Sequence record: OR896820.1
DNA: 64,000 nucleotides
Strand: one strand, 5' to 3'
From: Escherchia phage Stokescottia
Numbering within the stretch: the first letter of the stretch is position 1; each line of letters begins with the position of its first letter. Both the position numbers and the translations under genes were made by a program. This document shows, piece after piece, positions 25,349 through 31,818 of the stretch. Below the pieces are notes generated by a model, which was given only the letters and a program-made list of their open reading frames with translations, searched no databases and was not told the origin of the DNA.

Positions 25349-25419
25349 TGGGGTACGCATAGGTTGCAAATGGGCCTCCAAAACCCATGAAAAGGTTTCG
25401 AATACCTTTACCCCTGCCA
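25349..25419 (+). tRNA. tRNA-Trp-like (anticodon CCA), compact D-arm
   Basis: 71 nt; T-arm AAGGT-TTCGAAT-ACCTT, CCA-containing anticodon loop (7 or 9 nt depending on register), 1:72 mismatch, discriminator G, CCA. Confidence 0.45.
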
Positions 25420-25425
25420 AAATTT

Positions 25426-25500
25426 GCACCTTTAGCTGAGATGGATTAGCGCTTGCCTGAAGAGCTTGAGAGGTTCGTTCGATACGAACAGGGTGCACCA
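25426..25500 (+). tRNA. tRNA-Phe-like (anticodon GAA)
   Basis: Acceptor GCACCTT/AGGGTGC, loop CTGAAGA, two U-U mismatches in anticodon stem, discriminator A, CCA. Confidence 0.5.
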
Positions 25501-25782
25501 AATTGAAGGAGCTGCTGATGCATCCTGAAAACTTCTTTATTTACTGCGCGGATAAGTCGCTGAAACGTAGAATTAACAAAGTCTATCATTATCGTGCTAG
25601 TCAACAGCCTTATGTATATGCTTTTGACGGTGATCACATTCCCCTAGAACAATTATCTTGTGATTACATGATATTGAAGAACTTTGACGAGACGAAGATC
25701 TCAAGCGTTCATAATCGACAGAATCCATTAACGTGGAAATATAAGAAGAAAAAGAAAGGCATCAAATTCTTAAAAAATGTAG

Positions 25783-25811
25783 TTGCTTAGTTTCCAAAAG
25801 TTCTGTATAAT
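25783..25811 (+). promoter_or_regulatory. sigma70-type early promoter
   Basis: TTGCTT 25783-25788, TATAAT 25806-25811. Confidence 0.6.
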
Positions 25812-25840
25812 AATTACATAAATTGAACTGGAGAAGCAAC

Positions 25841-26065
25841 ATGACAGAACAAGAATTGAATGAACGTAAGCTGGTAATGCTTCGCTTACTAAATATTTTC
25901 TCTGGTATGGACGGTGGAATTGACTTTGTTCTTCTACGTTCTTTCGTAGAAGAAGCCGAAGGCGAATCTATCACTAAAATCCTTAAACACATGGGATTAC
26001 TTTTAGATGCTGCTAATGTGGCTACTGAATATAAACTAGAAGATCTACCGGAGCGTGTTAAATGA
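25841..26065 (+). CDS. hypothetical protein
   Basis: ATG at 25841 after promoter; ORF track 25823..26065. Confidence 0.5.
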   Translation: MTEQELNERKLVMLRLLNIFSGMDGGIDFVLLRSFVEEAEGESITKILKHMGLLLDAANVATEYKLEDLPERVK

Positions 26066-26253
26066 AACGATTAGTTAGATTTAAGTGTTGTGGTTCTGAA
26101 CATACTTTCACACATCTTCGTGAATTTAAAATGTGTGATTGTGGTAAATCAGGCTATGACTCAGGAGATGGGTTCTACACCCGTACTCTAGGGAACTTCA
26201 ATGATCTAGAATTTGAAGATCTCGAAAAACAAGATAAATCGACCGTTGGCTGA
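26062..26253 (+). CDS. Cys-rich small protein
   Basis: CCGSEH...CDCG; 3' end overlaps tRNA-Cys by 14 nt. Confidence 0.45.
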   Translation: MKRLVRFKCCGSEHTFTHLREFKMCDCGKSGYDSGDGFYTRTLGNFNDLEFEDLEKQDKSTVG

Positions 26254-26315
26254 ATGGCTTAGGCGAAGGATTGCAAATCCTTTTTATGTGAGTTCAAATC
26301 TCATGCGGTCGTCCA
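26240..26315 (+). tRNA. tRNA-Cys (anticodon GCA)
   Basis: Acceptor CGACCGT/GCGGTCG, loop TTGCAAA, discriminator T, CCA. Confidence 0.75.
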
Positions 26316-26467
26316 ATTTGCTGAAAGAATTGTTAAATCAATTCAGGCACGCGTAGGAACACTGTCTCCGTAATTGAAAGATGGGGCACGGTTTGGAGAG
26401 GTATGCCGCTACACGCTACGGTGCTAACTCCGTCTAGGTGAAAATCCTAGTCAGCAATGTAAATTTA

Positions 26468-26550
26468 GGGTCGTTAGCCAAGCGGTTTGGCGGCGGATTG
26501 TTAATCCGTGTCGAAAGACAACGTAGGTTCGAATCCTACACGGCCCGCCA
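26468..26550 (+). tRNA. tRNA-Asn (anticodon GTT) with 13-nt variable arm
   Basis: Acceptor GGGTCGT/ACGGCCC, D-stem GCCA/TGGC, loop TTGTTAA, variable stem-loop GTC-GAAA-GAC, discriminator G, CCA. Confidence 0.6.
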
Positions 26551-26652
26551 AATTCTGTGTAGAGTTAAGTAAACCGGTAGCCAATCAGCTATCATTGCTG
26601 ACATCGAATTCAGCCACAGATACCATTTTCATTAATAACTGAGGAAACAAGC

Positions 26653-26838
26653 ATGTCCAAGAATGTAATTGCACAGTTAGAAGTTCATCGTGATAGCACT
26701 ATCAACAATATTGAAGTTGAGAAGAAATACATCGAAGAACTTAAACATGATATACTAGTAAGTCTTAATCGTCTTAATGTACGAAAAGAGTTTCTTAAAG
26801 AACTTAATGCAGCTATTGAAAAACTCAAAGCTGAGTAA
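26653..26838 (+). CDS. hypothetical protein
   Basis: ORF track; coiled-coil-like. Confidence 0.45.
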   Translation: MSKNVIAQLEVHRDSTINNIEVEKKYIEELKHDILVSLNRLNVRKEFLKELNAAIEKLKAE

Positions 26839-26847
26839 ATGAATTAT

Positions 26848-26924
26848 GCGACCGGGGCTGGCTTGGTAATGGTACTCCCCTGTCACGGGAGGGAATGTGG
26901 GTTCAAATCCCATCGGTCGCGCCA
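26848..26924 (+). tRNA. tRNA-Asp (anticodon GTC)
   Basis: Acceptor GCGACCG/CGGTCGC, loop CTGTCAC, discriminator G, CCA. Confidence 0.75.
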
Positions 26925-26950
26925 AACTAAACTAGCACGAGAAAAATGCT

Positions 26951-27298
26951 ATGATTAATGCTAAAGAAGAATTGTTACTTGCCCTAAAGAATACTAATTC
27001 TGAAGTTAAGTGTATTAAGATAGAATTCGGTTATTATGGGGACAAAGAAGTTTGGGTATTACCCGTAGGTTATACAGAAAAAGATATTGAAGATTTTCTA
27101 AATAATCTAGACTTTAAATATGATTCTGGTTTCGGTGGACAATTGCTTTATGGTAACGTATGGTTTACTGATGGAACTTGGTTAGAACGTGGTGAATATG
27201 ATGGTTCTGAATGGTGGGAGTATAAGACTACACCAGCAATCCCTGAGGAATGCCGAACAATTAATGGTGAGGTAGATAATACTTTACGGTTAAACTAA
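26951..27298 (+). CDS. hypothetical protein
   Basis: ORF track. Confidence 0.5.
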   Translation: MINAKEELLLALKNTNSEVKCIKIEFGYYGDKEVWVLPVGYTEKDIEDFLNNLDFKYDSGFGGQLLYGNVWFTDGTWLERGEYDGSEWWEYKTTPAIPEECRTINGEVDNTLRLN

Positions 27299-27719: not shown

Positions 27720-27904
27720 ATATTTTATAAAGTGAAGAGAAGGAAAGCAAAATGAAACACAAGATAGCTCAAGTTTTTATGGCATTATGGTGTATGCCAA
27801 TAGCTGTAACAGCTTTTAATCTAGATACTTTTACTATAGAAGAAAAATATATCGGATTAGTTAGCGGCTTTAGTATACTTGGCTTATCTTTGTTGTGGTT
27901 GAAG

Positions 27905-27982
27905 AAATAATATTCTCCGTGTAGCTCAGTTTGGCCAGAGCGTTTCGTTTGGGGCGATAGGGTCGGGGGTTCAAATCCTCCC
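27905..27982 (+). tRNA. tRNA-Pro (anticodon TGG)
   Basis: Acceptor CTCCGTG/CACGGAG, D-stem GCTC/GAGC, loop TTTGGGG, discriminator A, CCA. Confidence 0.7.
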
Positions 27983-28066: not shown

Positions 28067-28265
28067 CCCGCTTCCATTTTAATAGGGGATTTCGAAATGA
28101 AAGTATTTCGATTAGTAGTAAGTGACAAACGTTTAGGTAAGAATACCTCAAAATCATTACTTGCTCATTATGGTAAAAATTGGGATGAAGTAATGGTAGA
28201 GTTTAATACTAATCACCCTTACTTGAAAGTTCACTCTATTAAAGAAGTATACAATGGTTACTAAT

Positions 28266-31318: not shown

Positions 31319-31612
31319 ATGAAACGTTATCTTTCTGTTATGTTCCAAACTGGTGGTCAACGCTATACCTATGAATTTCCATCTTCTTGGAAAATCAAAG
31401 AAGGTGATCAAGTAGTTGTACTAACACCGCGTGATGGGTACAAGGTAGTAACGGTTAAGCAAGTCTTTCCAAAAGATTATACACCATCTAAGTCTATTAA
31501 TTATAAGATGATTCATGGTGTAGTTCGTCAAGTACCCCGAGTGGACATCGAGGTCAAAGTAGATAAAGATGGTAAACTTAAATATACCTCTTGCTTAGAA
31601 GAGTTGCTATAA
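31319..31612 (+). CDS. hypothetical protein
   Basis: ORF track. Confidence 0.5.
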   Translation: MKRYLSVMFQTGGQRYTYEFPSSWKIKEGDQVVVLTPRDGYKVVTVKQVFPKDYTPSKSINYKMIHGVVRQVPRVDIEVKVDKDGKLKYTSCLEELL

Positions 31613-31818
31613 TGAGGATTACTTTTACAGAAAAGATCATGAGTAATGGTGTTATGATCATTACTGCATGGGATGGTAATCAGTGGTGTAGTGTTTCAGG
31701 TATTAAGCCTGAAGAACAAACACTAGAAAATATCTCAAAGATTAAGCGAAGAATGGCAGAACGTGCACGACTTCCAGGTGCACCTAGAAATGGCAAACGT
31801 TCTGCAATTAAATGTTAA
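31591..31818 (+). CDS. hypothetical protein
   Basis: ORF track. Confidence 0.45.
   Translation: MLRRVAIMRITFTEKIMSNGVMIITAWDGNQWCSVSGIKPEEQTLENISKIKRRMAERARLPGAPRNGKRSAIKC

What the first reader, a model, noticed from the sequence alone, without database searches (positions are those of the whole stretch)
26240..26253. tRNA-Cys overlaps the last 14 nt of the upstream ORF
The 5' acceptor strand of tRNA-Cys begins inside the final codons and stop codon of ORF 26062..26253. If the ORF is real, tRNA processing would cleave the mRNA at its stop codon, coupling tRNA maturation to mRNA 3' end formation.
Basis: seen in the sequence. Interest (0 to 1): 0.35.

Follow-up and report, generated by a model that had tools for sequence, protein, structure and literature searches.

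The report
Small phage gene ends inside tRNA-Cys
In this T5-like phage a real, conserved 63-codon gene runs 14 bases into the tRNA-Cys gene because an old 115-base deletion put its own stop codons out of frame; many public T5-like genomes already annotate this overlap, so it is an ordinary by-product, not a new mechanism.

Summary
ORF 26062..26253 (63 aa) ends with TGA at 26251-26253, which is nucleotides 12-14 of tRNA-Cys(GCA) 26240..26315, so the overlap is 14 nt. Both genes are genuine. The ORF is a DUF7695/phrog_7042 protein with dN/dS of 0.10-0.22, a GGAG ribosome-binding site and an ATGA junction with the upstream ORF. The tRNA is identical to T5 tRNA-Cys, and its acceptor stem is supported by compensatory changes. 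The window comes from a Tequintavirus (98.5% identical to slur09).

The overlap is best read as a deletion scar. Phages IME178 and phB7 carry a 95-aa two-domain version with its own TAA TAA stops 5 nt before the same tRNA. The window equals that allele minus 115 nt, which is a frameshift, so the old stops fall out of frame. Translation then runs to the first in-frame stop, inside the tRNA.

RNase P would cut 11 nt upstream of the stop codon. That would leave a message with no stop codon, not a 3' end at the stop.

About half of the sampled genomes with this tRNA share the junction. Several records annotate it, and the T5 reference annotates four similar overlaps. Interest is low.

The parts
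25783..25811 (+). Sigma-70 type early promoter: TTGCTT (25783-25788), 17-nt spacer, TATAAT (25806-25811). It is equivalent to T5 promoter P14b / T5P18.
   Evidence: Read from the sequence. The near-identical T5 sequence is annotated as promoter P14b in NC_005859 and as putative early promoter T5P18 in AY587007. The simple scan did not list it because the -35 hexamer matches only 3 of 6. That scan found one weak promoter-like match (9 of 12) at 25624-25653, upstream of this promoter, none between it and the tRNA, and no terminator-like site on the + strand.
25841..26065 (+). Upstream ORF A (74 aa, MTEQELNERK...), phrog_8408. GGAG at 25830-25833. Its stop TGA overlaps the ATG of ORF B (ATGA at 26062-26065).
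   Evidence: phrog_8408, E = 1.2e-48. Annotated in SSP1, Stitch, Eps7 and bux.
26062..26253 (+). ORF B, 63 aa: a small Cys/His-rich protein, plausibly zinc-binding (phrog_7042, divergent DUF7695). GGAG at 26050-26053, 8 nt before the ATG. The stop codon lies inside tRNA-Cys.
   Evidence: phrog_7042, E = 4.9e-37. (DUF7695 22.2 bits, cutoff 25). (Proteus and Providencia phage homologs 31.0 and 27.7 bits, above the cutoff). (296 phage records). (dN/dS 0.10-0.22).
26234..26237 (+). Deletion junction (A26234, 1-nt ambiguity) followed by the relic, now out-of-frame, TAA (26235-26237) of the ancestral tandem stop TAA TAA.
   Evidence: the exact common prefix with phB7 ends at ...AAACAAGA, the common suffix starts at ATAAATCGACC, and 115 nt are missing. 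Searches give the sequences.
26239..26240 (+). Predicted RNase P cleavage site (U-1 / C+1). U26239 is the first base of codon 60.
   Evidence: Inferred from the tRNA 5' end and the established role of RNase P. Not measured.
26240..26253 (+). The 14-nt overlap: tRNA-Cys nucleotides 1-14 (5' acceptor strand, U8, G9 and the start of the D arm) also encode the last two bases of the TCG codon (Ser60), then Thr-Val-Gly-stop of ORF B.
   Evidence: The 14 nt are the same in genomes with and without the overlap.
26240..26315 (+). tRNA-Cys(GCA), 76 nt, with U73 discriminator and encoded CCA. Identical to T5 tRNAC(GCA) T5t18.
   Evidence: The cloverleaf still forms in the minimum-energy fold when the ORF tail is included.

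Best explanation
The overlap is a tolerated deletion scar in a tightly packed operon that mixes mRNA and tRNA genes in a T5-like phage.

Shown: an early promoter (25783-25811) precedes two translationally coupled small ORFs, then tRNA-Cys, with no terminator between them. ORF B is a real protein gene and tRNA-Cys is a real tRNA.

Origin: an ancestral two-domain ORF B, still present in phages IME178, phB7 and SP01, ended in TAA TAA 5 nt before the tRNA. A 115-nt deletion removed the second, Cys-rich domain. Because 115 is not a multiple of 3, the old stops went out of frame. Translation now continues into the tRNA gene and stops at the first in-frame stop, U12-G13-A14 of tRNA-Cys. The last residues (Thr-Val-Gly and part of Ser) are dictated by the tRNA and probably have no function.

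Inferred consequences: on an unprocessed transcript, ribosomes terminate normally at this UGA and transiently unfold the acceptor and D arms. Once the tRNA folds, RNase P cuts between 26239 and 26240. This releases tRNA-Cys and leaves the ORF B message without a stop codon (...GAU AAA U-3'). Ribosomes still on that message would then be rescued by tmRNA or ArfA. Translation of ORF B and maturation of tRNA-Cys therefore exclude each other on one RNA at any one moment. That is most likely a side effect, not a selected control.
For: Anatomy.

Source and context: the window is 98.5% identical to Tequintavirus slur09. The promoter is annotated in two independent T5 records, and the scan found no terminator-like site on the + strand and no promoter-like match between that promoter and the tRNA.

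ORF B is real. It hits phrog_7042 at E = 4.9e-37. Homologs occur in 296 phage records, down to 47-55% identity in other genera and in a Klebsiella phage of the Stephanstirmvirinae. dN/dS is 0.12-0.20 even among genomes that all carry the overlap: window vs Stitch 0.12, Stitch vs Eps7 0.18, window vs Eps7 0.20.

The tRNA is real. It is identical to the T5 tRNA-Cys, and its four helices covary.

The scar. The window equals the phB7-type sequence minus 115 nt, with a 1-nt breakpoint ambiguity. Alleles with the same tRNA and their own stop exist: IME178 and phB7 (95 aa, gap 5), T5.070 (42 aa, gap 5), smaug (62 aa, gap 2), C13 and AKM_ECS (gap 2). A further deletion at a 7-nt microhomology (AACAAGA) gives the BB1/Kenya-K20 allele, in which only a 10-codon remnant MTEQDKSTVG* still reads into the tRNA. 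The 14 overlapped bases are the same whether or not an ORF overlaps them.

General tolerance of such overlaps. The T5 reference annotates four CDS 3' ends inside tRNA 5' ends: hegC/tRNA-Ser2 14 nt, hegD/tRNA-Gln2 23 nt, T5.069/tRNA-Asn 24 nt, T5.057/tRNA-Met 6 nt.

Fate of non-stop mRNA: review PMC3985003.
Against: No transcript ends, ribosome occupancy or protein data exist for this locus, so co-transcription, the RNase P site and the non-stop fate are all inferred.

The direction of the 115-nt event (deletion, not insertion) rests on parsimony: two-domain forms are diverse and widespread.

The overlapping junction is the majority state. Among 60 sampled rows, about 30 have the full ORF and about 21 the mini-ORF. 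It also occurs with both tRNA-Cys sequence variants. This could reflect positive selection instead of mere tolerance.
Confidence: 0.7

Rival explanations
1. Selected regulatory coupling. The overlap is kept because it ties ORF B output to tRNA-Cys maturation. RNase P cleavage switches off ORF B by turning its mRNA into a non-stop message whose product is tagged by tmRNA and degraded. Conversely, heavy translation delays tRNA-Cys maturation.
For: The junction is frequent and persistent: about 30 of 60 sampled rows. It is found in both Tequintavirus and Epseptimavirus. ORF B stayed under purifying selection after the overlap arose. Of the three frames into this tRNA, the one used gives the shortest extension: 14 nt, against 52 nt or more than 76 nt (read from the tRNA sequence).
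Against: Close relatives with the same promoter and tRNA do well with their own stop (T5, phB7, IME178, smaug) or with no ORF B at all (BB1, Kenya-K20). The origin is fully explained by one frameshifting deletion. The eight other ORF-tRNA junctions in the window avoid overlap.
Confidence: 0.13
2. Mitochondria-like tRNA punctuation with an incomplete stop codon. RNase P leaves ...AAA U-3', and poly(A) polymerase I adds A residues to create UAA. This would give a defined 59-aa product and a mature mRNA 3' end.
For: U26239 is the first base of codon 60, so U plus AA would make an in-frame UAA. Most overlapping alleles read have U at -1. The precedent is animal mitochondria, where 7 of 13 mRNAs have their stop codon completed by polyadenylation after tRNA excision (PMC6056719).
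Against: A complete in-frame stop already exists 11 nt downstream. Phage SaI_NFG_5581 has C at -1 (AAA CCG), which would give CAA. In bacteria polyadenylation generally marks transcripts for degradation (PMC6056719). U at -1 is also seen in T5 and phB7, where no ORF crosses the site.
Confidence: 0.04
3. ORF B is not translated (a spurious ORF), so there is no real gene overlap.
For: Some annotations omit it: slur09 and T5_ev219 list only the tRNA. No proteomic evidence was found.
Against: dN/dS is 0.10-0.22 with dS of 0.5 up to saturation. A conserved Cys/His motif and a GYDxGDGYY motif persist across genera (alignment). ORF B hits phrog_7042 and DUF7695. It has a GGAG ribosome-binding site and an ATGA junction with ORF A. 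The omissions are most likely a pipeline rule against CDS that overlap tRNAs (my own knowledge of Prokka defaults, not tested here).
Confidence: 0.03

Closest known systems
CDS 3' ends overlapping tRNA 5' ends in the phage T5 reference genome NC_005859 (hegC/tRNA-Ser2, hegD/tRNA-Gln2, T5.069/tRNA-Asn, T5.057/tRNA-Met), and the same ORF B/tRNA-Cys overlap annotated in SSP1, Stitch, bux and SaI_NFG_5581
   Same: Same phage group, same tRNA region and same geometry: a same-strand CDS whose last 6-24 nt are the first bases of a tRNA. The identical 14-nt ORF B/tRNA-Cys overlap is already annotated in public records.
   Different: In T5 itself this locus does not overlap: T5.070 has its own stop 5 nt upstream. 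Three of the four T5 cases involve large inserted genes (the two HNH endonucleases and T5.069), whereas here a small DUF7695 protein truncated by a deletion is involved. I found no paper that discusses the consequences.
tRNA punctuation model of animal mitochondria (tRNA excision releases mRNAs; incomplete stop codons are completed by polyadenylation)
   Same: An mRNA directly abuts a tRNA in a polycistronic transcript. Cleavage at the tRNA 5' end would define the mRNA 3' end and would leave a single U in the first codon position.
   Different: Here the DNA encodes a complete in-frame stop inside the tRNA. Bacterial poly(A) is generally destabilising (PMC6056719). There is no evidence that the cleaved form is the functional mRNA, and the -1 base is not always U.
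Bacterial non-stop mRNA rescue by tmRNA-SmpB (trans-translation) and ArfA/ArfB
   Same: A 3'-truncated mRNA without a stop codon is the classical substrate (PMC3985003). RNase P cleavage at 26239/26240 would create one for ORF B.
   Different: This is a predicted consequence, not a demonstrated one. There is no evidence that tagging happens or matters here.
Mixed mRNA-tRNA operons of E. coli and T4 (for example tufB downstream of four tRNAs, secG-leuU, the T4 tRNA cluster with interspersed ORFs); recalled from my own knowledge
   Same: Protein-coding and tRNA genes share a transcript and are separated by RNase P and RNase E processing.
   Different: As far as I recall, the coding sequences in those operons do not extend into the tRNA. 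This was not tested here.

Membership tests
tRNA-Cys (bacterial/phage type; T5 tRNAC(GCA)) | Cloverleaf that scores above the Rfam RF00005 gathering threshold | tested here: met
   48.5 bits against a 29-bit cutoff, full model 1-71. ARAGORN also calls tRNA-Cys.
tRNA-Cys (bacterial/phage type; T5 tRNAC(GCA)) | GCA anticodon, U73 discriminator, encoded CCA end | tested here: met
   Read from the sequence: anticodon GCA at tRNA nucleotides 34-36, and ...GCGGTCG-T-CCA at 26305-26315. That U73 is a CysRS identity element is from my own knowledge.
tRNA-Cys (bacterial/phage type; T5 tRNAC(GCA)) | Helices maintained by compensatory changes among relatives | tested here: met
   92.5% of cells are paired, 14 of 21 pairs change on both sides, and the acceptor stem is 100% paired.
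tRNA-Cys (bacterial/phage type; T5 tRNAC(GCA)) | Expressed, processed and aminoacylated with cysteine | not testable with these tools
   The sequence is identical to the T5 gene T5t18, which the T5 record annotates with a functional note. There are no data for this phage.
DUF7695 (PF24749) / phrog_7042 small Cys/His-rich protein | Scores above the Pfam gathering threshold | tested here: not met
   The window protein scores 22.2 bits against a 25-bit cutoff. Homologs from Proteus phage 1 (31.0 bits) and Providencia PR1 (27.7 bits) pass. The window protein is therefore a divergent relative and not a formal Pfam member.
DUF7695 (PF24749) / phrog_7042 small Cys/His-rich protein | Full-length match to the PHROG profile | tested here: met
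   phrog_7042, E = 4.9e-37, residues 1-62 on profile positions 1-61 of 62.
DUF7695 (PF24749) / phrog_7042 small Cys/His-rich protein | Protein-level purifying selection | tested here: met
   dN/dS 0.10-0.22 in seven informative pairs.
Mitochondrial-type tRNA punctuation with incomplete stop codon | mRNA immediately flanked by a tRNA in one primary transcript | tested here: inconclusive
   The genes are contiguous or overlapping. A promoter lies upstream and no terminator lies between. The transcript itself was not observed.
Mitochondrial-type tRNA punctuation with incomplete stop codon | The gene lacks a complete stop codon; the stop is created by polyadenylation of the cleaved 3' end | tested here: not met
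   A complete in-frame TGA exists at 26251-26253. Whether polyadenylation occurs cannot be tested here.
Same-strand CDS-into-tRNA overlaps of T5-like phages | A real CDS whose 3' end and stop codon lie within the 5' part of a real downstream tRNA on the same strand | tested here: met
.
tmRNA (non-stop mRNA) substrates | mRNA 3' end upstream of any in-frame stop, with ribosomes stalled at that end and the product SsrA-tagged | not testable with these tools
   Predicted from the RNase P site 11 nt upstream of the stop. Concept from PMC3985003.

The most novel reading that the evidence does not exclude
The overlap could work as a processing switch. RNase P cleavage at the tRNA-Cys 5' end would convert the ORF B message into a non-stop mRNA ending in a lone U. 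That message would then either be tagged through tmRNA, which would time-limit the DUF7695 protein, or be oligoadenylated to create a UAA stop. The second route would be a bacterial-virus counterpart of mitochondrial tRNA punctuation with incomplete stop codons. The same logic would apply to the 10-codon leader ORF of BB1-type phages.
Probability: 0.06. Interest if true: 0.55.

Novelty: already known. Interest (0 to 1): 0.18.

Why it matters
It matters mainly for annotation and as a small evolutionary example. A protein gene under purifying selection can legitimately end inside a functional tRNA gene. Pipelines that forbid CDS-tRNA overlaps therefore drop a real gene, as in slur09 and T5_ev219.

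The set of alleles (two-domain, one-domain overlapping, T5.070, 10-codon remnant) shows how short-homology deletions reshape the dispensable tRNA region of T5-like phages. It also shows how a frameshifting deletion can recruit a stop codon from a tRNA D arm.

If the predicted conflict between translation and RNase P processing were shown to have consequences, it would be a compact natural system for studying mRNA-tRNA co-processing and non-stop rescue during infection. Nothing here indicates that it is more than a tolerated side effect.

Tried and rejected
- **Spurious ORF.** Rejected on conservation and dN/dS.
- **Mis-placed tRNA 5' end or pseudogene.** Rejected: Rfam score, identity to T5 tRNA-Cys and acceptor-stem covariation.
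- **Internal promoter giving a separate tRNA transcript.** The consensus scan found none between 25654 and 26598 on the + strand. The same scan also missed the annotated T5-type promoter, whose -35 hexamer is TTGCTT (3 of 6), so I relied on the two T5 annotations. A weak internal promoter cannot be excluded.
- **MAFFT alignment of the junction.** It placed the gap misleadingly. I replaced it with an exact common-prefix and common-suffix comparison.
- **Function of ORF B.** No PDB sequence match at E up to 10, nothing meaningful in NCBIfam, and only a DUF in Pfam. I ran no further search on this, because the answer does not bear on the overlap.
- **Literature.** Six full-text searches found no paper on this overlap, on T5 CDS-tRNA overlaps, or any T5 transcript-end or ribosome-profiling data. 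One search failed on a term that was too short. The classic T5 tRNA-region papers (Ksenzenko/Shlyapnikov group; Wang et al. 2005) are not in the searchable library, so what they say about overlaps could not be checked.
- **Allele frequencies.** These are estimated from evenly spaced rows of BLAST tables, not from a full census.

Full report
**What is there.** The window comes from a T5-like phage. Bases 25500-27000 are 98.5% identical to Escherichia phage slur09 (Tequintavirus) and match 462 phage records. The finding lies in the tRNA region, where ARAGORN tRNAs between 19.9 and 32.1 kb, all on the + strand.

tRNA-Cys(GCA) is called at 26240..26315. Rfam RF00005 scores it 48.5 bits against a 29-bit cutoff, over the full model. 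The ORF list gives ORF 26062..26253, 63 aa. The sequence reads ...GAA AAA CAA GAT AAA TCG ACC GTT GGC TGA, and the tRNA begins at C26240. The stop codon (26251-26253) is therefore tRNA nucleotides U12-G13-A14, and the overlap is 14 nt.

**Both partners are real.** The tRNA is identical to T5 tRNA-Cys T5t18. Across seven tRNA-Cys variants from related phages, 92.5% of pair cells are standard pairs and 14 of 21 pairs change on both sides. The acceptor stem is 100% paired with 5 of 7 pairs compensatory, and sliding the register destroys the signal. This fixes the 5' end at 26240. The cloverleaf still forms in the minimum-energy fold when the ORF tail is included.

ORF B has GGAG (26050-26053) 8 nt before its ATG. 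That ATG overlaps the stop of the upstream 74-aa ORF A in an ATGA junction (25841..26065). ORF B matches phrog_7042 at E = 4.9e-37 and, weakly, Pfam DUF7695 at 22.2 bits against a cutoff of 25. More distant homologs from Proteus and Providencia phages pass that cutoff at 31.0 and 27.7 bits.

tblastn finds ORF B in 296 phage records, down to 47-55% identity in other Demerecviridae genera and in a Klebsiella phage of the Stephanstirmvirinae. Nei-Gojobori dN/dS is 0.10-0.22, with dS from 0.5 to saturation. This holds for pairs that all carry the overlap: window vs Stitch 0.12, Stitch vs Eps7 0.18, window vs Eps7 0.20. The protein alignment shows a conserved Cys/His pattern and a GYDxGDGYY motif in residues 1-45, followed by a variable tail.

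**Transcription context.** A sequence at 25783-25811 (TTGCTT, 17 nt, TATAAT) is nearly identical to the T5 sequence annotated as promoter P14b in NC_005859 and as putative early promoter T5P18 in AY587007. The consensus scan finds no other promoter-like site between it and the tRNA, and no terminator-like site on the + strand. Co-transcription of ORF A, ORF B and tRNA-Cys is thus a well-founded inference, but it was not observed.

**How the overlap arose.** Upstream of the same tRNA-Cys, related phages carry a series of alleles.
- IME178, phB7 and SP01 have a 95-aa two-domain ORF B. It consists of the window's residues 1-57 followed by a second Cys-rich, zinc-ribbon-like module. It ends AGA TAA TAA AT just before the tRNA, 5 nt short of it.
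- T5 itself has T5.070 (42 aa), which is MTEQ from ORF A fused to that second module, with the same stop.
- smaug and phiR2-01 have a 62-aa one-domain form with its own TAA 1-2 nt before the tRNA. C13, AKM_ECS, bombadil and CitS1 have other two-domain forms that stop 1-3 nt before it.

An exact comparison shows that the window equals the phB7-type sequence with 115 nt removed. The common prefix ends at ...AAACAAGA (A26234), and the common suffix begins at ATAAATCGACC, with a 1-nt ambiguity. Because 115 = 3 x 38 + 1, the old tandem stops are now out of frame; a relic TAA sits at 26235-26237. The reading frame runs on to the first in-frame stop, which happens to be U12-G13-A14 of the tRNA.

A second deletion, at a 7-nt microhomology (AACAAGA), produced the BB1/Kenya-K20 allele. 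It keeps only the ribosome-binding site plus ATG ACA GAA CAA GAT AAA TCG ACC GTT GGC TGA. This is a 10-codon remnant, MTEQDKSTVG*, that still overlaps the tRNA by 14 nt.

The 14 overlapped bases are the same in overlapping and non-overlapping genomes. The only variant seen, C5 to U in JLBYU43, keeps a G-U pair and is synonymous in the ORF. The tRNA dictates the sequence, and the ORF merely reads it.

**How common, and is it known?** I sampled 60 evenly spaced rows from the 374 records that contain this tRNA 5' region.
- About 30 are contiguous with the ORF B tail (window type).
- About 21 match only from AACAAGATAAAT onward (BB1 type; two of them were read directly).
- One is the two-piece phB7 type.
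- About 8 are own-stop types such as T5 and smaug.

The overlap is annotated as such in SSP1 (SSP1_168 with tRNA-Cys), Stitch, bux and SaI_NFG_5581. It is silently dropped in slur09 and T5_ev219. The T5 reference annotates four other CDS 3' ends inside tRNA 5' ends: hegC/tRNA-Ser2 14 nt, hegD/tRNA-Gln2 23 nt, T5.069/tRNA-Asn 24 nt and T5.057/tRNA-Met 6 nt. More examples occur in SSP1, phiR2-01 and bombadil.

In this window, eight other ORFs stop 1-21 nt before a tRNA, and only ORF B overlaps one. The phenomenon is therefore a recorded feature of this phage group. I found no paper that discusses it; the classic T5 papers are not in the searchable library.

**Mechanism.** In fact RNase P would cut between U26239 and C26240, 11 nt upstream of the stop. 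That removes codons 60-63 and the stop. The product ends ...GAU AAA U and has no in-frame stop, which makes it a classical substrate for tmRNA-SmpB or ArfA rescue (PMC3985003).

On an unprocessed RNA, a ribosome terminating at U12-G13-A14 must unwind the acceptor and D arms. Translation and tRNA maturation therefore exclude each other on one molecule at any one time. These steps are inferred from established RNase P and ribosome-rescue biology and were not measured.

Relatives do well with an own stop or with no ORF B at all, and the origin is a simple frameshifting deletion. I therefore judge the coupling a tolerated by-product (confidence 0.7) and not a selected device (0.13).

One coincidence is worth noting. 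The cleaved RNA ends with a U in the first codon position, so oligoadenylation would create UAA. This is what happens in animal mitochondria (PMC6056719). Against it, a full stop already exists downstream. One phage has C at -1. U at -1 is also present where no ORF crosses the site. Bacterial poly(A) generally marks transcripts for degradation (PMC6056719). I give this reading 0.04.

**Verdict.** The feature is a real but ordinary overlap that public records already annotate, and it is best explained as a deletion scar. Interest is 0.18.

Noticed in passing
window 25349-25419 (+): ARAGORN does not call a tRNA here and Rfam scores it only 23.1 bits, below the cutoff. Yet it is almost identical to the gene that the T5 reference annotates as tRNA-Trp(CCA), T5t20. 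slur09 carries a different, canonical tRNA-Trp at the same position. So the window probably has 22 tRNA-like genes, not 21, one of them atypical.
   Followed up: partly
window 26316-26467 (+): A 152-nt non-coding spacer lies between tRNA-Cys and tRNA-Asn. It folds into a closed multi-branch structure (-43.6 kcal/mol, z = -2.25) and has no Rfam match. The same slot holds a 172-aa ORF (T5.069) in T5, and 519-nt CDSs in Kenya-K20 and bombadil. In Stitch and smaug the slot is only 7-8 nt. It could be a remnant or a small stable RNA like those annotated in T5.
   Followed up: partly
L021 (phage BB1) 677-726 and L022 (Kenya-K20) 677-726: In about a third of sampled T5-like genomes, ORF A and ORF B are deleted. 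What remains is the early promoter, a GGAG ribosome-binding site and a 10-codon ORF, MTEQDKSTVG*, which ends at the same TGA inside tRNA-Cys. This would be a translated leader running into a tRNA.
   Followed up: yes
window 26468-26550 (+): tRNA-Asn(GTT) is 83 nt long, with an insertion of about 10 nt in the variable region relative to the Rfam consensus (alignment). This is unusual for a class I tRNA. T5 annotates a 78-nt tRNA-Asn.
   Followed up: no
window 28097-28264, 31591-31818 and 27752-27910 (+): Several small ORFs stop only 1-4 nt before the next tRNA (Lys, Ile, Pro). RNase P cleavage would leave these mRNAs with almost no 3' untranslated region. ORF-to-tRNA packing is tight throughout the region.
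   Followed up: partly
L016 (T5, NC_005859) and L024 (T5, AY587007): The tRNA-Cys coordinates in AY587007 are shifted by about 68 nt relative to the actual gene and to NC_005859. This looks like an annotation error in that record.
   Followed up: no
L011 (Salmonella phage SB13) 1201-1410: ORF B carries an in-frame tandem duplication of six codons (AGDGYY AGDGYY) inside its most conserved motif, and it still ends inside tRNA-Cys.
   Followed up: no
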